The notes beneath the pieces are model-generated. The model was given only the letters and a program-made list of their open reading frames with translations. It was not told where the DNA came from and did not search any database. Shown piece after piece: positions 41,669 to 48,555 of a stretch of DNA of 64,000 nucleotides (the stretch's first letter is position 1; the number at the start of each line of letters is the position of its first letter). Source of the stretch: an uncultured euryarchaeote (GTDB taxonomy: Archaea; Thermoplasmatota; Poseidoniia; Poseidoniales; Poseidoniaceae); the NCBI GenBank assembly GCA_937915175.1, contig CALDNA010000016.1, positions 54,956-118,955 of the forward strand. Reading direction: 5' to 3'. The translations under genes and the position numbers were made by a program.

Positions 41669-42526
41669 ATGAAGGGCCCTGTCTTCCAAGGCTTGATGAG
41701 GAAGGCATTAGCCCAAAACCCGAACCTTTTGCGGACGCTGTTAGGTCTTTCTTTCACCCTTATATTTATGCTGTCATACGCCGTTTACGGCGCAACGGTA
41801 TCGCCCTCCTATTACCTCTATGATACAGATTCAACCCTCACCACCCATGAAAATATTGATCCAGTTCGCATCTATCAAGAAGACACGAACACGACGACTT
41901 GGACGTGGTCAGTGCCAGCCGACGGAGCGAACTTGACTTGGGTTAATCTCACTGCGGTTGAACTGTCGAACGGAGCCGAAGTGCGGTTGATCAACGGAGC
42001 TGGTTTATTCAGCCACCAGAAATTAGGCGTTGACGGAGCAGATGGGTTCAGTTGCCGAGACTCCTGTCAGAAAAACACAACACATTCCATCATCGTGGAG
42101 GAAGGTGGGGAAATATCGATTATCGCTCTGACGAGCACAGATCCCGCTCGACGCTCAAACGGAACCGTATACGCCCAAACTGAATCGGGAGCCAAAGAGA
42201 AGGCCCTTGATGCAATCGAATACGAACACTCACCGTCGCTCATCAGGGTTGAAATCATCGAAAAGGGCAACAGATCAACAGCCCCTGCCATGACCATCAC
42301 CACGGTGAATGAAGCGTTTGCATCGATTGGACCGTTTTCAGTGGATGCAGCAACCGAATTTTTGTGGGCTTTAGCGGCGGTAGTCGGTTGTTTTGCTATG
42401 GTGTTAATCCCTTCATTCACAGTATATTTTGCTGCCAACGCTAAAGAAAAGCGCGACGCAGTCAAACTGGCAGCATCGGAACAGGACATCAACGAAGCCT
42501 TAGGGACCCAAAACGAAGACGAGTGA
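41669..42526 (+). CDS. Membrane-anchored extracytoplasmic hypothetical protein (N-terminal signal/TM, C-terminal TM)
   Basis: Start at MKGPVFQ. The upstream part of the ORF-track frame lies antisense to rps19e. Hydrophobic segments at both ends with Thr/Asn-rich sites between them. ATGA overlap with the giant surface protein gene. Confidence 0.5.
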   Translation: MKGPVFQGLMRKALAQNPNLLRTLLGLSFTLIFMLSYAVYGATVSPSYYLYDTDSTLTTHENIDPVRIYQEDTNTTTWTWSVPADGANLTWVNLTAVELSNGAEVRLINGAGLFSHQKLGVDGADGFSCRDSCQKNTTHSIIVEEGGEISIIALTSTDPARRSNGTVYAQTESGAKEKALDAIEYEHSPSLIRVEIIEKGNRSTAPAMTITTVNEAFASIGPFSVDAATEFLWALAAVVGCFAMVLIPSFTVYFAANAKEKRDAVKLAASEQDINEALGTQNEDE

Positions 42527-45500
42527 AGCCGCCACTTTCCTCATATATGTTGAAGCGTTGTACTCGCACGAGCGCCATGATTCGTACGCCCGCAATTTTG
42601 TTGGTTGTCCTTTTCTTACTGGCTTCTGCCGCCCCAATGGCGGACCTAACAGATGCAGAAACCGACGTTTCAATGTCGGTTGCAAAAGCGACTGGTGTCG
42701 ATGTTACAGTGTCGAATGTTTCTTTTTCATACACAACCGCAGGGGATGAAGAGCGATACAGAATGTTCTCATCAAACCATCCGATTCCCGCATTCAATCG
42801 TCCTGCAGAACTCTATGTCGTGGACGCCGTTGTCGATGTCCCAATCTATGCTGAAGTTACAGTGGATAATATTGGAACCAGTGCATCAGGTAACATTGAT
42901 GTTGAACTCAAGGTATTCCATAACGAATATCAGCAATTTGAAATGATCAATACCACGAAGCAGATGCCTTCCCTTACGGGAGGGAGTTCGAACACCCTCG
43001 GATTTACGTTTACCCCAACGTATTCGGGAAACCATTCCCTCCAAGTTGTTGCTGCATCAACAATCGCTGACGACAACCCTGCCAACGACGACAGGAACCG
43101 GCATTTCACGGTAGCCTCACATTACTTCAATTGTGAAGTTCTTTCGGGCTGGACAATCACGAATGAATGGGGAATAAACTCTGAGACCTCCCTCTCACAA
43201 GGGACTGCCTGCCATGTCGGAAATGGAGCCTCATCCTCTTACACTGCATCGACAACCAGTGTCTTGGAAACCCCAGCTTTTGACATGTCGGATGCTGTGT
43301 CCAACCCCCTTAGAACGAACGGATTGAGTTTCTTCTACACGGGCAGTTCGCAACCAGGTGATGAATTGAAGGTTTATGTCCAAGATAACGCTGGAACAAA
43401 CACCCAACTGGGAGGCATTACTGGAACCGTCGATGAAGCCTTCATTGACGGAGTGAGTTGGCAAACATTTTCGGTCAACAGCCAGGGCATCACTTCGCCA
43501 CTTATTCCCGCCCCTCAAAGCGCTTTTACTTCTTCAACAAAATTCCGTTTTGTATTCACAACTGATGCTGTAACCAATGACATCGGATTTTGGATGGATG
43601 ACATCGTCATTATGTATGATCAAAAAGTCAAGCCAATCGAGTATGCCATTTCCTCCGCAGGAATCTCCACCATTGGATCCCTCCCTGATGAATGGGGGAG
43701 TGTTCAGGTGAGTTTGACAAATGAAGGGAACATCTCAGATTATGTGTTGCCGACCATTGAAGGCTTACCTGATGGCTGGGAAGTGTATTTTGCACACCTC
43801 ACTGGCGTTTCTATCAACGAGCAAACAGGAGTGTTATTGTCACCCGGTGAAACGAAGGCAATTGAAGTAAAAATCAGGCCCGACGTCAACGCCACAACTG
43901 GATTCGAGCAAATGACCTTCATCGGGACCTCCAGCCAATATGAATCAATTAACACTACACTCCCTGTCCAATTCCAAGTTCTTCCAGACAGAGAGCCGTT
44001 CATCGTACAGCCAGAAGTTCGACCAACATGCCCCCCTGGCTACAGTTGCCCGTTCACGGTTGAAGTGCAAAACATTGGGGATGCAACTGACGTGTTTGAT
44101 TTATCCATCGAACAGGGTGCTTTGCCAGAGGGATGGAGCGTGCAATTGGCATGGACTCAATCCACCTCAATTATGGTTCGACCAGACACCCCCGTGCAGG
44201 TCGCAATGACAATGACGATTCCATCCACTGCTGCGCCGGATACAGTGGCCCCATTCACGCTCATAGCCCAATCACAAAACAACACAGCTAAGCAACATCA
44301 AGCGGACATTAGTGTGTCAGCATCGATGATCAGTGAAGCGTACATTGGGATGACGACAACCCAAATGATGCGCGATTGGTTGGTTGATGCCGGTGAAACA
44401 AAAACTGTCGAATTCACCATCTGGAACAATGCGACGCGTCAAGATATTTTTTCGATGGAAGTGACTCACGAAGCAGTTGGTTTGTGGACCATCGAACAGC
44501 CAACTCGCCCAGACGCGGTGATAAATCCAGGCGCAAGCACCACCTTCACTGTGAAAGTAACTGCACCCGAAACAGGGCAAGCAGGTGACAAAGCACCCTC
44601 ACTTACGCCAACCATCACCTCGAAACGCAGTGGCATGTCCATCAGCGGTGAGATGTTTGACAACATCGTGGTCCGGACCATCAGCGACCTCACAATCACC
44701 CTGTTAGAAACGCCCGACAAATTAAGGCCGGGTACGGCCAATAAGGTCCTCATCGAAATCGTCAATCAAGGCAATGGACCGATCGATGCCATCGTAACAG
44801 CAGATGGACTGCCTGCAGCGTGGGATGCATGGATGAAAGTCAATGGCGATATTGTATCAGAGTCCATTGCCCTCTCTGCACCGTACGATTTGGACAACAA
44901 CGCAACTGTCGAGATGTGGATCGTTGTTCCGAGCGAAGAGGCGGCAAGTGAGATTCATACAATCACCATCATGGTTTCAAACGCCTTAGGATTGGAAGAC
45001 GTTCAAATTGAAGACAACAGCGTCACCTTCGATACCATCACGGCATCTGTACGCATTCCAGACCTCGTAGGTTCAAGTCAATCTCAATCCGCAATGGTTG
45101 GCGACACAGTGAGCGTCAACGCCACCTTACGAAACATCGGAAACGCTGCGGATGATGGAATCATTGTCCTTGCATCCTTTTCGAGTTCACCGCCCGAGGA
45201 AAACATTGTTGCATTCTTCACGACGAGCAAAGGTGGGTCTTCCAAATCTGTTGGTGAGGCTGTGACGATGATGCTTCTGCCCAACCAATCAACAACATTG
45301 ACAGTGGACCTGATTCTGCCGAACACAATGATTCTTAACACTCGAATTGTCGTTTCGTTTGAAGTCATTGCGGGACTGAACGCCGAAATGCAGCCTTATG
45401 AATTGAGGCATGAAGCATTAATCATCGTGGACCAACAACGCCAAATTGGAGCATCACTGAGCAGGGGGACCGATGAAGTATACCCTACTGGGACTGGTGT

Positions 45501-46140
45501 TCCGTTGTTTGTGAACATCACCAGTACCTCAAGCCAGCGCGAGGATCTTAGGTTACGAACAACGTTGCCCGAATCTTGGCAAATGGTGTGCAATGGCATC
45601 CTCGTGGATAAAGAAGGTCAAAATCTAACTTTTGAACCGGGCCACGTGGCTCCACAGTTATCCGATGTTCCATGCACCCTTCACCGTCTTGGCGGCCCGT
45701 TAGGGGGTATCGTAACATTTCAACTCGAGACAGAGGATGGTGCCCGTACATGGCAAACCAGCCAAGCGTATTCCTTCTCTGAACGCCCAACCGACCAAGC
45801 CTCGATGAATGTAGGTGCGATTGCTGGAGGTGGAGGTGCCCTTGTTGCATTTGTATTCCTGATGAGTGTCCTGCTTCGGGGTCGAAGCAAAGAAGAAGAA
45901 TTTGAAGAGGAAGTCAAAATTGTACCGCAGGAGTTCCAGCATAGTGGGCCGCCTGTCTCAACTGGGCCACCGATCTCAGCACCTCAAAGTTCCACACCTG
46001 CAGCACAAACTACAGAAGCACCAGCGGCTGCATCCAATGGTCCAGAAGTTCCACTCACCGGTTTACCATCCGGTTGGACGATGGAACAGTGGGCTCATTA
46101 TGGTCAACAATACCTTGACCGACTTGAAGGACAAGCATGA
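42523..46140 (+). CDS. Giant (1205 aa) cell-surface protein with signal peptide, multiple CARDB/Ig-like beta-sandwich domains and a C-terminal transmembrane anchor
   Basis: N-terminus AILLVVLFLLASAAPMA. Repeated beta-rich modules (VDNIGTSASGNIDVELKV, VQNIGDATDVFDLSI, IVNQGNGPIDAIV, LRNIGNAADDGIIVL). C-terminal GAIAGGGGALVAFVFLMSVLL TM, then a charged, Pro/Gln-rich tail. Confidence 0.7.
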   Translation: MKPPLSSYMLKRCTRTSAMIRTPAILLVVLFLLASAAPMADLTDAETDVSMSVAKATGVDVTVSNVSFSYTTAGDEERYRMFSSNHPIPAFNRPAELYVVDAVVDVPIYAEVTVDNIGTSASGNIDVELKVFHNEYQQFEMINTTKQMPSLTGGSSNTLGFTFTPTYSGNHSLQVVAASTIADDNPANDDRNRHFTVASHYFNCEVLSGWTITNEWGINSETSLSQGTACHVGNGASSSYTASTTSVLETPAFDMSDAVSNPLRTNGLSFFYTGSSQPGDELKVYVQDNAGTNTQLGGITGTVDEAFIDGVSWQTFSVNSQGITSPLIPAPQSAFTSSTKFRFVFTTDAVTNDIGFWMDDIVIMYDQKVKPIEYAISSAGISTIGSLPDEWGSVQVSLTNEGNISDYVLPTIEGLPDGWEVYFAHLTGVSINEQTGVLLSPGETKAIEVKIRPDVNATTGFEQMTFIGTSSQYESINTTLPVQFQVLPDREPFIVQPEVRPTCPPGYSCPFTVEVQNIGDATDVFDLSIEQGALPEGWSVQLAWTQSTSIMVRPDTPVQVAMTMTIPSTAAPDTVAPFTLIAQSQNNTAKQHQADISVSASMISEAYIGMTTTQMMRDWLVDAGETKTVEFTIWNNATRQDIFSMEVTHEAVGLWTIEQPTRPDAVINPGASTTFTVKVTAPETGQAGDKAPSLTPTITSKRSGMSISGEMFDNIVVRTISDLTITLLETPDKLRPGTANKVLIEIVNQGNGPIDAIVTADGLPAAWDAWMKVNGDIVSESIALSAPYDLDNNATVEMWIVVPSEEAASEIHTITIMVSNALGLEDVQIEDNSVTFDTITASVRIPDLVGSSQSQSAMVGDTVSVNATLRNIGNAADDGIIVLASFSSSPPEENIVAFFTTSKGGSSKSVGEAVTMMLLPNQSTTLTVDLILPNTMILNTRIVVSFEVIAGLNAEMQPYELRHEALIIVDQQRQIGASLSRGTDEVYPTGTGVPLFVNITSTSSQREDLRLRTTLPESWQMVCNGILVDKEGQNLTFEPGHVAPQLSDVPCTLHRLGGPLGGIVTFQLETEDGARTWQTSQAYSFSERPTDQASMNVGAIAGGGGALVAFVFLMSVLLRGRSKEEEFEEEVKIVPQEFQHSGPPVSTGPPISAPQSSTPAAQTTEAPAAASNGPEVPLTGLPSGWTMEQWAHYGQQYLDRLEGQA

Positions 46141-46165: not shown

Positions 46166-46339
46166 ATGGCCACATATCCTGCCCCGTGGTATGGCTTGTG
46201 GGTCTTGGTTATGTTTTTCGGCGTAGCCACGTGGTTTTTGAGAAACTTCACCGAACGGGTTGAAGCAACTCGCCTTTCTGCTTTGTTAGGTGTAGTTTCC
46301 ATGACAACCCTTCTTTTGTGGACTCTTTTGGAATTTTGA
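46166..46339 (+). CDS. Small hydrophobic protein (57 aa, two predicted TM helices)
   Basis: In-frame ATG within an ORF-track ORF, just after the surface-protein stop. MATYPAPWYGLWVLVMFFGVATWFLRNFTERVEATRLSALLGVVSMTTLLLWTLLEF. 6 nt upstream of the PqqD-like gene. Confidence 0.3.
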   Translation: MATYPAPWYGLWVLVMFFGVATWFLRNFTERVEATRLSALLGVVSMTTLLLWTLLEF

Positions 46340-46345
46340 GGTGCG

Positions 46346-46897
46346 ATGATGGACATAGTTGATGTGAGCAAACATGCCTATGCTGGCACTTATCCTTGCC
46401 GAGTTCCAGTCTGGTGGGGCCGCTACGGTGAGGCTGGACCACATCCCGACCTCGATGGCGTAAGTGGTCGCCGAATTGTCTTGAGGATTGAAAAAAGATT
46501 TAACCGCTTTGAACGAATTTTAGCGCGCTTGTTCCGAGCACCGAGGGAAGTACGCAGGCCCCTTGATCCAAAAAACAGCATGCTCTGGGAATTAGCCAAT
46601 GGCATGCGTACATTCGAAGAAATATGCATCCAAATGAACGAGGTATTCCAAGAAGATATGGCACCTGTTGTCGATCGCACAGCTTCAGGGATTGACGCAC
46701 TTAAACGTAGAAACTTAATGACGGTTCTTTCCACTAAATTCTCAAAAAAATGGTCCACAGGACCAGGTGTCGTTCCAGAACATCAAACATTAGCGCCGCT
46801 CGGTGAGGGTATGAAAATCGACGCAGACCCACTTGACGGAGAACAAAACGTCAGAGAAGTGGAAGGAGCAACTCAACCGGCCGCCCAACACAACTGA
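46346..46897 (+). CDS. PqqD-like (RiPP-recognition-element-like) domain protein
   Basis: Central region RIVLRIEKRFNRFERILARLF...SMLWELANGMRTFEEICIQMNEVFQEDMAPVVDRTASGIDALKRRNLM matches the PqqD family pattern (iW.l.dG.rt..eI...l.e.f......v..D...fi..L...gLi). Confidence 0.45.
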   Translation: MMDIVDVSKHAYAGTYPCRVPVWWGRYGEAGPHPDLDGVSGRRIVLRIEKRFNRFERILARLFRAPREVRRPLDPKNSMLWELANGMRTFEEICIQMNEVFQEDMAPVVDRTASGIDALKRRNLMTVLSTKFSKKWSTGPGVVPEHQTLAPLGEGMKIDADPLDGEQNVREVEGATQPAAQHN

Positions 46898-47198
46898 TCG
46901 TTCCTGTATCCAATAAGGGACGCTCCATGAGATGGCCGTTTTCTGCTAAAAAAGCAACAACTGAATCCAGTTTGGAGGGTTCCAAAGAAGAGGAATCAGC
47001 AGATTTGAATTTCGGATCTTTTAGACGAATAGCATTGTGGAGTGGACCTTGAAGACGCGACAAAACCGAACGGATTTCCGTAGTGGTAAGAGGTGTGTTG
47101 AGGTAAAGATGAACTCGTACATTCATCGATGATGCTTCGCACATTGCGAGCGCTTGACGCGATTTTGAACATCGTGGGTTATGATAAAGGGTGATCAT
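46851..47198 (-). CDS. arsC: ArsC/Spx-family (glutaredoxin-fold) arsenate-reductase-like protein
   Basis: MITLYHNPRCSKSRQAL (catalytic Cys in the YHNP.C..S motif) ... ENGHLMERPLLDTG. The ORF-track N-terminal extension is rejected. Confidence 0.7.
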   Translation of the reverse strand: MITLYHNPRCSKSRQALAMCEASSMNVRVHLYLNTPLTTTEIRSVLSRLQGPLHNAIRLKDPKFKSADSSSLEPSKLDSVVAFLAENGHLMERPLLDTGTISCVGRPVELLLPLL

Positions 47199-47980
47199 TG
47201 GTCCACATCCGTATTTTTTGCACCTTCTGCAGCCGGTGACCAAACCAATCGTAAACCAATGCCGTCGCCTCGATGGTCCCTCAAGGCGGAAGCACGCGCA
47301 CGGCTTCGGGTGCTGTCTGATTCTGTAAACCATGAACCGCCTCTGTGGACTTTGCGTGTGGTCAAAGAGGAAATGTGAGCGTGTTGTGTACCGGAATGTT
47401 GCTTGTAGTTGGGTGCATAATCATCTTGACACCATTCTCCTGTTTGGCCGTGGAGGTCCAAGAAACCCCATGGATTAGCCTTTTTTTGACCAACTTCACG
47501 AGTGGTTGCCCCTGCGTTTCCTGCGTGCCAGCCATAATCATTCAATTCTGAATCGCGGTCTCCGAAGCTCCAACGAGAGTCTGTGTTGGCGCGAGCGGCG
47601 TATTCCCATTCTGCTTCCGATGGTAGGCGCCAAGTCCCTGTCAATCCTAAACGCACAGTGTTTTGTTCTGCTTCATTCATTTTTGAAATGAAGATTTGAG
47701 CATCATCCCATGAAATCATTTCCACAGGCCTCAGACCTGCGGCCCAACCCTCCTGAAATTTCGATGGATTGAGACCCATGATGGATTGCCAGTGGGCTTG
47801 AGTAACGGGGCGTTCTCCGAGGAAAAAAGGATCGAGGATTTCAGTTTCAATGGCTGGCCGTTCGGTCTTAGAGCCACGTTCATCTGCGTCACCCATCAGA
47901 AAGCGACCCGGTTCAACCAAAATGTACCGTCCGCCGTAGAGGCCATCGAATGCAGGGCGTGTGGAAGACATGCGCCTCAC
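47195..47980 (-). CDS. Formylglycine-generating-enzyme (SUMF1/EgtB-like, DUF323) family protein
   Basis: RPVEMISWDDAQIF, WRLPSEAEWEYAARA and VHRGGSW are signature blocks of the FGE-sulfatase domain. Confidence 0.7.
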   Translation of the reverse strand: MRRMSSTRPAFDGLYGGRYILVEPGRFLMGDADERGSKTERPAIETEILDPFFLGERPVTQAHWQSIMGLNPSKFQEGWAAGLRPVEMISWDDAQIFISKMNEAEQNTVRLGLTGTWRLPSEAEWEYAARANTDSRWSFGDRDSELNDYGWHAGNAGATTREVGQKKANPWGFLDLHGQTGEWCQDDYAPNYKQHSGTQHAHISSLTTRKVHRGGSWFTESDSTRSRARASALRDHRGDGIGLRLVWSPAAEGAKNTDVDQ

Positions 47981-48555
47981 GATTCGGATTTGAGCATTTT
48001 GGCTGTTCGCAATACGGATTCAACGAGGGTGTTGAGGCGTTCAGCGGTGGCAGCATTTACCAGTTCTCCATGGTCGTCAAAGGCTTCTTTGACATGGCCG
48101 ACTGCGAGTTGTTCCGGGACGGGCCAAGCATGGAGCCAGCGGAGCATAATCCTCATGTGGTTCAAGGTGTTGGAATTCTCTATACCTCCAAGCGTGCACA
48201 TGAGGCCGAACGCTTTGCCTCCCACATGCTTGTCATAGAGCCAATCAAATGTGTTTTTCATAACACCAGACATTGTACCGTGGTATTCTGGTGAACAGAC
48301 CAAAAATCCATCGCACGAACTTGCTAGTTCCTGGAATGCTTTCACGTTCGCATGCTCCCAACAGCCGTCTTCACCAACAAAGGGAAGCGGGGTTTTGTCA
48401 CAATCCCAAAAATGAACTTCAGCCCCTGCTGCTTCTGCAATAGAGAGGGCTTGAGTGATCATCATGCCGCTTTTTGACGATGTACGGTATTCGCCAGAGA
48501 GTCCCATGATGCGCAATGGTTGTTCGGTCATGCCACTGGGTCGGCACCAAAGCAT
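47977..48555 (-). CDS. NAD(P)H-dependent FMN reductase (flavodoxin-like, SsuE/ArsH-type)
   Basis: LRIMGLSGEYRTSSKS...ADGFLVCSPEYHGTMSGVMKNTFDWL...AFGLMCTLGG is the FMN_red family pattern. Confidence 0.7.
   Translation of the reverse strand: MLWCRPSGMTEQPLRIMGLSGEYRTSSKSGMMITQALSIAEAAGAEVHFWDCDKTPLPFVGEDGCWEHANVKAFQELASSCDGFLVCSPEYHGTMSGVMKNTFDWLYDKHVGGKAFGLMCTLGGIENSNTLNHMRIMLRWLHAWPVPEQLAVGHVKEAFDDHGELVNAATAERLNTLVESVLRTAKMLKSES

What the first reader, a model, noticed from the sequence alone, without database searches (positions are those of the whole stretch)
46166..48555. PqqD-like (RRE-type) protein next to a small hydrophobic ORF, converging on an FGE-like / ArsC-like / FMN-reductase trio
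The PqqD-like domain. The 183-aa protein (46346-46897) carries a domain that closely matches the PqqD family. In bacteria that family is the peptide-recognition element of RiPP maturation systems.

The small ORF. Six nucleotides upstream, and right after the giant surface-protein gene, sits a 57-codon ORF encoding a very hydrophobic peptide. It could be a precursor or substrate peptide, or simply a small membrane protein.

The convergent genes. On the opposite strand, running into this pair, are three genes. One is a formylglycine-generating-enzyme/EgtB-like protein, a family that performs Cys oxidation or C-S chemistry on peptides and small thiols. The second is an ArsC/Spx thioredoxin-fold reductase. 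The third is an NAD(P)H:FMN reductase.

Interpretation. No radical-SAM or other canonical RiPP enzyme is present, so a PqqD-like protein in this company is unexplained. The PqqD-like ORF and the arsC ORF appear to overlap by about 47 nt in convergent orientation, so one of the ends may be mis-set.
Basis: partly seen in the sequence, partly recalled or inferred. Interest (0 to 1): 0.6.

Follow-up and report, generated by a model that had tools for sequence, protein, structure and literature searches.

The report
Membrane micro-protein plus PqqD-like partner
The PqqD-like gene and the tiny hydrophobic gene in front of it are a real, strongly conserved two-gene unit of marine Thermoplasmatota archaea, most likely a membrane-tethered peptide-binding adaptor and not a peptide natural-product pathway. 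The FGE-like/ArsC/FMN-reductase genes facing them are a separate operon.

Summary
All ORFs exist at the stated coordinates in this Poseidoniales (Marine Group II) window, including the 6-nt spacing and the 47-nt convergent overlap.

"Closely matches PqqD" is overstated. The 183-aa protein has no Pfam hit even at E=10. Its family is still PqqD-related: 25 of 28 homologues hit PF05402, distant homologues pass Pfam's cut-off, and AlphaFold models best match RiPP-recognition-element structures (TbiB1, PqqD).

The 57-codon ORF is a real gene for a two-helix membrane hairpin (33 synonymous vs 5 non-synonymous codon changes against a relative). A homologue lies directly upstream of the PqqD-like gene in 116 of 133 loci across Poseidoniales, MGIII, other Thermoplasmatota and one Methanomassiliicoccales. 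The pair stays together through inversions.

The FGE-like gene accompanies it in only 43 of 118 species loci, all of the Poseidoniaceae-type arrangement, and always on the opposite strand. FMN reductase, FGE-like and ArsC form their own operon with 4-nt gene overlaps. The FGE-like protein lacks both catalytic cysteines.

No RiPP enzyme is linked in any lineage.

Best reading: the cytoplasmic RRE-fold protein docks on the micro-protein, often beside giant surface-protein genes. The function is untested.

The parts
41696..42526 (+). 276-aa protein of unknown family with hydrophobic segments near both termini. First gene of the co-directional cluster.
   Evidence: ORF. Called as a 276-aa gene in the near-identical contig L001. 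No Pfam hit. A homologue stays next to the cluster in MGIIa and MGIIb arrangements.
42523..46140 (+). Giant (about 1197-1205 aa) surface protein with a CARDB domain, an N-terminal signal-like segment, a C-terminal membrane helix and a Pro-rich cytoplasmic tail.
   Evidence: for the ORF. CARDB at 2.3e-13, FixG_C and NPCBM_assoc. The called start in L001 corresponds to window 42547.
46060..46119 (+). Conserved motif GLPxGW(T/S)xEQWxxYGQQYLD at the very C-terminus of the giant protein.
   Evidence: The regex matches once in the window and in 47 related loci, always at the giant's C-terminus just before the small ORF.
46166..46339 (+). 57-aa two-helix membrane hairpin micro-protein. Hydrophobic segments lie at about residues 7-26 and 37-56, with a charged loop LRNFTERVEATR.
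   Evidence: Hydropathy and codon comparison: 33 synonymous vs 5 non-synonymous codon changes against L004. HMM homologues lie directly upstream of the PqqD-like gene in 116 of 133 loci, and 116 of 117 hits are at that position. There are 22 public clusters, all named 'hypothetical protein'. No Pfam or NCBIfam hit.
46338..46343 (+). GAGGTG Shine-Dalgarno-like motif that overlaps the small ORF's stop codon, 2 nt before the PqqD-like start codon.
   Evidence: Direct reading. 'F*G' (TTT TGA GGN) recurs at this junction in L004, L006 and L008.
46346..46897 (+). 183-aa cytoplasmic PqqD/RRE-fold protein. It has an N-terminal YPCRxPVWWGR beta-hairpin, a core domain and a variable acidic tail.
   Evidence: 109 homologues. 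Alignment A1 with invariant motifs. AlphaFold2 model with pLDDT 90.5. Family-level PF05402 hits.
46457..46741 (+). Core RRE-like winged-helix domain (residues 38-132) with the invariant RRPLD strand and the WELxDG helix.
   Evidence: Core model with pLDDT 88.9. The Foldseek top 7 hits are all RREs: TbiB1 5v1u prob 1.00, TM 0.57/0.63, plus PqqD 5sxy and 3g2b.
46851..46897 (.). 47-nt convergent overlap of the 3' ends of the PqqD-like and ArsC genes.
   Evidence: Both stop codons read directly. The same overlap is called in L002, L004-L007.
46851..47198 (-). 115-aa ArsC-family (glutaredoxin-type arsenate-reductase-like) protein. Last gene of the minus-strand operon.
   Evidence: PF03960. TIGR00014 at 79.6 bits, below the 106 cut-off. 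The best PDB match is 3rdw at 8.5e-16, with YHNPRCSKSR, ERP and GRP conserved. Its ATG overlaps the FGE-like TGA as ATGA.
47195..47980 (-). 258-261-aa FGE-sulfatase-fold protein without FGE's catalytic cysteines.
   Evidence: PF03781 at 3.5e-40. The best solved relative is T. denticola TvpA 2y3c at 3.6e-29. In the alignment to S. coelicolor FGE 2q17/6muj, the two cysteines of 'ylC-h-dsyC' align to T and R.
47977..48555 (-). 192-aa NAD(P)H-dependent FMN reductase (ArsH-like). First gene of the minus-strand operon.
   Evidence: PF03358 at 1.7e-30. ArsH TIGR02690 at 97.8 bits, far below the 292 cut-off. In MGIIb genomes its homologue sits directly upstream of the small/PqqD-like pair on the same strand.

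Best explanation
The finding spans two independent units.

Unit 1 (46166-46897, + strand) is a conserved two-gene cassette of Thermoplasmatota. It encodes a 57-aa membrane hairpin micro-protein, translationally coupled to a cytoplasmic protein with a PqqD/RRE (peptide-binding winged-helix) fold.

The most likely mechanism is inferred, not shown. The RRE-fold protein would use its invariant beta-strand edge (RRPLD) and adjacent helix to bind a short segment of the micro-protein. The best candidate is the conserved, positively charged loop, which should face the cytoplasm. This would form a membrane-tethered peptide-binding adaptor. In Marine Group II the cassette is attached to the locus of a giant C-terminally anchored surface protein, so it may serve envelope-protein assembly or anchoring. 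It is not a RiPP biosynthetic cluster.

Unit 2 (46851-48555, - strand) is a tightly coupled operon: FMN reductase, FGE-fold protein, ArsC. It probably has a redox or arsenic-detoxification role. It faces unit 1 only in genomes with the Poseidoniaceae-type gene order.
For: Shown:
- The small ORF is under purifying selection: 33 synonymous vs 5 non-synonymous codon changes.
- A small-protein homologue lies directly upstream, on the same strand, in 116 of 133 PqqD-like loci. 116 of 117 small-protein hits in about 1 Mb of loci are at that position.
- The pairing holds in MGIIa, MGIIb, MGIII, other Thermoplasmatota MAGs and a Methanomassiliicoccales chromosome.
- The pair is inverted as a unit between the MGIIa and MGIIb gene orders.
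- An SD-like GAGGTG overlaps the small ORF's stop codon.
- The fold is PqqD/RRE.
- No RiPP enzyme is linked. Neighbours elsewhere are GrpE/DnaK, acetyl-CoA synthetase, Dph2, TBP and AlaRS. There is no CxxxCxxC ORF in the window.
- The FGE-like gene is present in only 43 of 118 species loci.
- The minus-strand genes overlap as ATGA/GTGA.
- The FGE-like protein lacks the catalytic cysteines.
- A giant signal-peptide, C-terminally anchored protein adjoins the pair in three different arrangements. In 11 non-Poseidoniales loci this giant (about 1130-1195 aa) shows no detectable sequence similarity to the window's giant.
Against: - No physical interaction was tested, and no natural fusion of the two proteins was found.
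- Foldseek E-values are weak (0.045-0.1), and winged-helix DNA binders follow closely in the ranking.
- The window protein itself has no Pfam hit.
- About 14 evaluable loci lack the small ORF, for example L013/L014 and the MGIIb subset where the FMN reductase abuts the PqqD-like gene.
- One MGIIb subgroup lacks the giant gene next to the pair, so the envelope link is not universal.
- Much of the synteny within Poseidoniales could be inherited rather than selected.
- The FMN reductase stays adjacent in both MGII families, so a link to it is not excluded.
Confidence: 0.5

Rival explanations
1. Cryptic RiPP-like pathway. The 57-aa product would be a precursor recognised by the PqqD-like RRE and modified by the FGE-fold protein and FMN reductase, or by unlinked enzymes.
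For: The RRE fold is otherwise characteristic of RiPP pathways (PMC12710340). The short ORF lies directly upstream. The FMN reductase is adjacent in both MGII families.
Against: - The small protein is a two-helix hydrophobic hairpin conserved along its whole length, with no leader/core pattern.
- The FGE-like gene is absent from 75 of 118 species loci and is always on the other strand.
- The FGE-fold protein lacks the catalytic cysteines.
- No protease, transporter, rSAM, YcaO or similar gene is linked in any lineage.
- All NCBIfam RiPP-chaperone models score far below their cut-offs.
Confidence: 0.07
2. The PqqD-like protein is a winged-helix DNA-binding regulator. The micro-protein is its membrane-bound antagonist or sensor, in the manner of an anti-regulator.
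For: After the RREs, the next Foldseek hits are wHTH regulators: PerR, Fur, Lrp/AsnC. Several distant homologues carry Lys/Arg-rich tails. A zinc-ribbon protein follows the gene in non-Poseidoniales lineages.
Against: RRE structures outrank the DNA binders (prob 1.00 vs 0.33 or less). Sequence profiles hit only PqqD-type models. The window protein and many relatives have acidic tails. No conserved target operon is evident.
Confidence: 0.15
3. The RRE-fold protein is a cytoplasmic chaperone or adaptor for the conserved C-terminal tail of the giant surface protein (GLPxGWTxEQWxxYGQQYLD), and the micro-protein is accessory.
For: The tail motif is strictly conserved and lies immediately before the cassette in 48 loci. 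Giant anchored proteins adjoin the pair in three arrangements.
Against: - The strict regex for the motif matched only loci with the giant-small-PqqD-like gene order. MGIIb giants were not examined with a looser pattern.
- The giants of other lineages have different, short basic tails.
- Many lineages keep the pair with no giant nearby.
Confidence: 0.15

Closest known systems
Discrete RiPP recognition elements of the PqqD family (PF05402): PqqD, lasso-peptide B1 proteins such as TbiB1, MftB, ScmD
   Same: The same small winged-helix plus beta-sheet fold (Foldseek top hits). The same sequence family at profile level. A stand-alone protein encoded right next to a short ORF.
   Different: - No modifying enzyme is linked.
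- The adjacent short ORF is a conserved two-helix membrane protein rather than a leader-core peptide.
- There is an extra conserved N-terminal beta-hairpin (YPxRxPVWW), an extra helix (residues 54-62) between two strands of the core, and a long variable charged tail.
- The family appears confined to archaeal Thermoplasmatota.
- The window protein itself falls below every curated cut-off.
Formylglycine-generating enzyme / EgtB / PvdO / TvpA family (PF03781)
   Same: The FGE-sulfatase fold covers nearly the whole 258-261-aa protein.
   Different: Both Cu-binding catalytic cysteines are replaced, by T and R. There is no DinB-like N-terminal domain as in EgtB. The closest solved relative is Treponema denticola variable protein 1 (PDB 2y3c).
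ars-type detoxification genes (ArsC glutaredoxin-type reductase, ArsH FMN reductase)
   Same: The ArsC fold with the catalytic Cys and the Arg-containing motifs conserved. The FMN reductase's best NCBIfam match is ArsH.
   Different: Both score below the equivalog cut-offs (79.6 vs 106, and 97.8 vs 292). No arsenite pump or ArsR was seen nearby. ArsC is present in only 24 of 118 related loci.

Membership tests
PqqD / RRE superfamily (PF05402) | Sequence match to the PF05402 profile above the 23.4-bit gathering score | tested here: inconclusive
   The window protein has no hit even at E=10. 25 of 28 close homologues hit at E<=1. Distant homologues, linked to the window protein by profile E-values of 1e-20 or better, score 41.2, 34, 32.2, 26.4, 25.6 and 24.6 bits. 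Membership therefore rests on transitive homology.
PqqD / RRE superfamily (PF05402) | Winged helix-turn-helix with a three-stranded sheet, as in solved RREs | tested here: met
   AlphaFold2 models with pLDDT 90.5 and 88.9. The Foldseek top hits are TbiB1 5v1u (prob 1.00, TM 0.57/0.63, rmsd 3.4-3.9 A), PqqD 5sxy and 3g2b, and lasso B1 6jx3. E-values are only 0.045-0.6, as is usual for a domain this small.
RiPP biosynthetic cluster (functional RRE context) | A linked precursor peptide plus at least one modifying enzyme (radical SAM, YcaO, lasso B2/C, ATP-grasp, MNIO and similar) | tested here: not met
   No such Pfam family occurs in the neighbours in the window or in seven other lineages. There is no CxxxCxxC ORF in the 64-kb window.
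RiPP biosynthetic cluster (functional RRE context) | Binding of a peptide segment by the RRE | not testable with these tools
   This needs complex prediction with interface scores, or a binding assay.
PQQ-pathway PqqD (TIGR03859) | Equivalog score of at least 46 bits, with pqqA/B/C/E neighbours | tested here: not met
   The best family member scores 24.4 bits and the window protein has no hit. There are no pqq genes nearby.
Formylglycine-generating enzyme | Two active-site cysteines that bind Cu(I) (PMC6676471, PMC4505483) | tested here: not met
   In the alignment to S. coelicolor FGE 2q17/6muj, 'rggsylCh-dsyCnr' aligns to the window's 'rggswfTesdsTRsr'. There is no Cys anywhere after RGGSW.
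EgtB / OvoA-type sulfoxide synthase | An N-terminal DinB-like iron-binding domain preceding the FGE-like domain | tested here: not met
   The protein is only 258-261 aa. The TIGR03440 match covers model positions 293-412 of 413 only and scores 49.5 bits against a 360 cut-off.
ArsC (glutaredoxin-coupled arsenate reductase) | ArsC fold with the catalytic Cys in HNPxC and the conserved Arg residues | tested here: inconclusive
   PF03960 is met. YHNPRCSKSR, ERP and GRP are conserved against 3rdw, 3f0i and 1i9d. TIGR00014 scores 79.6 bits, below its 106 cut-off.
ArsH | Equivalog score of at least 292 bits | tested here: not met
   97.8 bits. It is a generic FMN_red family member, PF03358 at 1.7e-30.

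The most novel reading that the evidence does not exclude
The micro-protein/PqqD-like pair could be a previously undescribed archaeal use of the RiPP-recognition fold outside natural-product biosynthesis. In this reading it is a membrane-anchored peptide-recognition module that recognises a transmembrane micro-protein, and through it helps assemble, anchor or regulate giant surface (possibly S-layer-like) proteins in uncultured marine Thermoplasmatota.
Probability: 0.2. Interest if true: 0.6.

Novelty: new variant of a known kind. Interest (0 to 1): 0.4.

Why it matters
RRE/PqqD domains are used as class-independent beacons for mining peptide natural-product clusters. This family shows the fold maintained across an archaeal phylum with no biosynthetic enzymes, paired instead with a membrane micro-protein. 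Genome miners would therefore score it as a false positive. It also hints that the fold has a non-biosynthetic, membrane-associated role. It gives a concrete and cheap experiment (a two-protein binding test) for a pair of 'hypothetical' genes present in many of the species-level genomes sampled for the very abundant Marine Group II archaea. It also marks the giant surface-protein locus of these uncultured organisms for study.

Tried and rejected
- A profile of the family against PDB sequences gave only noise, such as myosin and DBF4.
- My first degenerate DNA pattern had a miscounted run of N and found nothing. The corrected pattern hit all 15 known loci exactly once.
- I looked for natural small::PqqD-like fusions. 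There are none, only frame overlaps.
- I looked in the window for the zinc-ribbon partner seen in other lineages. It is absent.
- I tested whether the giant proteins of the other lineages are homologous to the window's giant. No significant similarity was found.
- A literature search for PqqD in Poseidoniales returned nothing.
- I considered predicting the complex from a read-through fusion.
- I considered the idea that a gene end is mis-set. It is rejected because both ends are stop codons and the overlap is conserved.
Full report
**Origin and observation**

The window is from a Candidatus Poseidoniales (Marine Group II) archaeon. The 183-aa protein is 99% identical to a protein of GCA_003672505.1, and that contig has the same gene order.

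- The giant gene ends at 46140.
- The 57-codon ORF is 46166-46339.
- Six nucleotides separate its TGA from the ATG at 46346.
- The 183-aa ORF ends at 46897.
- The ArsC-family ORF on the other strand ends at 46851, which gives a 47-nt convergent overlap.

Because both ends are stop codons, neither can be mis-set. The same 47-50-nt overlap is called in relatives whose PqqD-like protein is 72% and 57% identical to the window's.

Pfam confirms FGE-sulfatase (3.5e-40), ArsC (2e-08) and FMN_red (1.7e-30).

**Is the 183-aa protein PqqD-like?**

Not 'closely'. It has no Pfam or NCBIfam hit, even at E=10, and a family profile finds nothing among PDB sequences. The relationship is nevertheless real at family level:
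- 25 of 28 homologues hit PF05402 at E<=1, best 8.9e-06.
- A profile search of 1.84 billion representatives finds 346 relatives at E<=0.001. They share the core 'vvLxxxKxFxRFE...RRPLDxxxSxxWELxDG...E.I.P...R'.
- The more distant relatives pass Pfam's 23.4-bit gathering score with 41.2, 34 and 32.2 bits.
- Those relatives give sub-threshold hits to ScmD, PqqD, lasso-PqqD and GeoRSP-PqqD chaperone models.

AlphaFold2 models are confident, with pLDDT 90.5 for the full length and 88.9 for the core. Foldseek ranks RRE structures first: TbiB1 5v1u (prob 1.00, TM 0.57/0.63), PqqD 5sxy and 3g2b, and lasso B1 6jx3. E-values are only 0.045-0.6, and winged-helix DNA binders come next in the ranking.

The protein is therefore a divergent member of the PqqD/RRE superfamily. 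It carries an extra conserved N-terminal beta-hairpin (YPCRxPVWWGR) and a variable acidic tail.

**The small ORF**

It encodes two hydrophobic helices around a charged loop, LRNFTERVEATR. Against the orthologue in L004, 38 of 57 codons differ, 33 of them synonymously. This is strong purifying selection.

It is present, called or uncalled, in every Poseidoniales locus first examined. It is also found upstream of distant PqqD-like genes in L012 and L015.

I then scanned one genome per GTDB species with a degenerate DNA pattern for the RPLD...W...DG...E...P signature. They come from Poseidoniaceae, Thalassarchaeaceae, MGIII, assorted Thermoplasmatota and Thermoplasmata MAGs, and one Methanomassiliicoccales chromosome.

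With an iterated HMM:
- 116 of 133 loci (116 of about 130 with enough upstream sequence) have the micro-protein directly upstream on the same strand.
- 116 of the 117 micro-protein hits in all this DNA are at that position.

Even where the first HMM failed, a 55-60-aa two-helix ORF with the same layout sits there. The junction carries an SD-like GAGGTG that overlaps the stop codon. This is the one near-universal association of the PqqD-like gene.

**The convergent trio**

FMN reductase, FGE-like and ArsC overlap head to tail by 4 nt (GTGA/ATGA). They are one operon on the minus strand.

Among the 118 species loci:

| Gene near the PqqD-like gene | Species loci |
|---|---|
| small ORF | 103 |
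| FGE-like | 43 |
| ArsC | 24 |
| FMN reductase, convergent | 34 |
| FMN reductase, directly upstream on the same strand | 19 |

The FGE-like gene occurs only in the Poseidoniaceae-type arrangement and always on the opposite strand. In Thalassarchaeaceae the FMN reductase lies directly upstream of the small/PqqD-like pair on the same strand, and FGE-like and ArsC are absent.

Comparing the two layouts shows that the small/PqqD-like pair was inverted as a unit:
- MGIIa: p276> giant> small> Pq> <ArsC <FGE <FMNred TPR>
- MGIIb: <TPR FMNred> small> Pq> <giant <p276

Other points on the trio:
- The FGE-fold protein's closest solved relative is T. denticola TvpA (3.6e-29).
- Aligned to S. coelicolor FGE, its two Cu-binding cysteines are T and R (their role is described in PMC6676471 and PMC4505483).
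- It has no EgtB N-terminal domain.
- ArsC keeps the catalytic Cys and the Arg motifs, but it scores below the equivalog cut-off, as does the ArsH-like reductase.

The trio looks like a redox or detoxification operon that is merely a neighbour. The persistent adjacency of the FMN reductase within MGII is noted as a caveat.

**No RiPP machinery**

Outside Poseidoniales the neighbours are GrpE/DnaK, acetyl-CoA synthetase, Dph2, TBP and AlaRS. No ORF of 120 aa or more in the 64-kb window has a CxxxCxxC motif. The micro-protein is conserved along its whole length rather than showing a leader/core pattern. A RiPP reading is therefore unlikely.

**What else travels with the pair**

- In MGIIa the pair ends a tight co-directional cluster: p276, then the giant CARDB protein, then small, then PqqD-like, with gaps of 20, 25 and 6 nt.
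- In MGIIb it is convergent with giant and p276.
- In 11 non-Poseidoniales loci it is followed, 4-155 nt downstream, by a 1130-1195-aa protein. This protein has the same topology (signal peptide, C-terminal anchor) but no detectable sequence similarity to the window's giant.
- Other lineages have instead a roughly 85-aa zinc-ribbon gene downstream.
- One MGIIb subgroup has lost the giant.

A link to giant surface proteins is therefore recurrent but not universal.

**Mechanism (inferred)**

RREs bind a short peptide as an extra strand against the edge strand of their beta-sheet (background knowledge of RRE-leader complexes, not tested here). In this family an invariant strand, RRPLD, precedes the WELxDG helix. 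That it is the peptide-binding edge is my inference; I did not check which strand of the model superposes on the binding strand of the RRE hits. The most conserved part of the micro-protein is the basic loop, which should face the cytoplasm by the positive-inside rule.

I propose that the cytoplasmic RRE-fold protein docks on the micro-protein and forms a membrane-tethered adaptor. No interaction was tested, and no natural fusion exists.

The rivals that remain open are a winged-helix regulator with a membrane antagonist, and an adaptor for the giant protein's conserved C-terminal tail.

**Verdict**

The proposed link to the FGE/ArsC/FMN-reductase trio is not supported.

What is really there is an uncharacterised, phylum-wide micro-protein/RRE-fold cassette. 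It is a new variant of a known fold family in a non-RiPP context. Interest is moderate.

Noticed in passing
window 46060-46119; same position in 47 related loci: The giant surface protein ends in a strictly conserved cytoplasmic motif, PPLPxxGLPxGW(T/S)xEQWxxYGQQYLD, after a Pro-rich linker. It occurs once in the window. It has no Pfam match (the hits all lie elsewhere in the protein).
   Followed up: partly
L031, L042, L047 (3499-7023), L064, L076, L081, L100, L112, L115, L128, L133: In non-Poseidoniales Thermoplasmatota the small/PqqD-like pair is followed on the same strand by a 1130-1195-aa protein. It has a signal peptide, a conserved 'GWWWDIFENLVYYGDPDL' region and a C-terminal membrane anchor. 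It has no Pfam hit and no detectable similarity to the MGII giant.
   Followed up: partly
L012 7435-7686, L013 7744-8004, L014 2407-2673; also L026, L032, L069, L077, L078, L088, L089, L108: A roughly 85-aa zinc-ribbon protein (CPxCG...YYExALITGxKYHCxDCDYxGxFxIE) is encoded immediately after the PqqD-like gene, often with a 4-nt overlap, in MGIII, Methanomassiliicoccales and other lineages. It is absent from the window.
   Followed up: partly
L036, L038, L055, L080, L087, L102 and others; L048, L066, L079, L099: In Thalassarchaeaceae the FMN reductase gene directly precedes the small/PqqD-like pair on the same strand. In a few genomes the small ORF is missing and the reductase abuts the PqqD-like gene. 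One MGIIb subgroup also lacks the giant gene, and p276 is then directly convergent.
   Followed up: partly
L022 (NZEQ01000052.1, 'Verrucomicrobiales'), L037 (CAXRJJ010000038.1, 'Yoonia sp.'), P0037 ('Deltaproteobacteria'): Contigs binned to bacteria carry the full Poseidoniales gene order (p276, giant, small, PqqD-like, FGE-like, FMN reductase, TPR). They are probably mis-binned archaeal contigs.
   Followed up: no
window 48516-48555: The longest ORFs of the divergent FMN-reductase and 961-aa TPR genes overlap by 40 nt at their 5' ends. In relatives the reductase is called 176-184 aa and the TPR gene starts about 100 nt away, so the true starts here are probably internal.
   Followed up: no
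window 42523-42547: The giant gene's longest ORF starts at a GTG that overlaps the p276 stop by 4 nt. Public annotation of the near-identical contig starts it 24 nt later, at an ATG (1197 aa).
   Followed up: no
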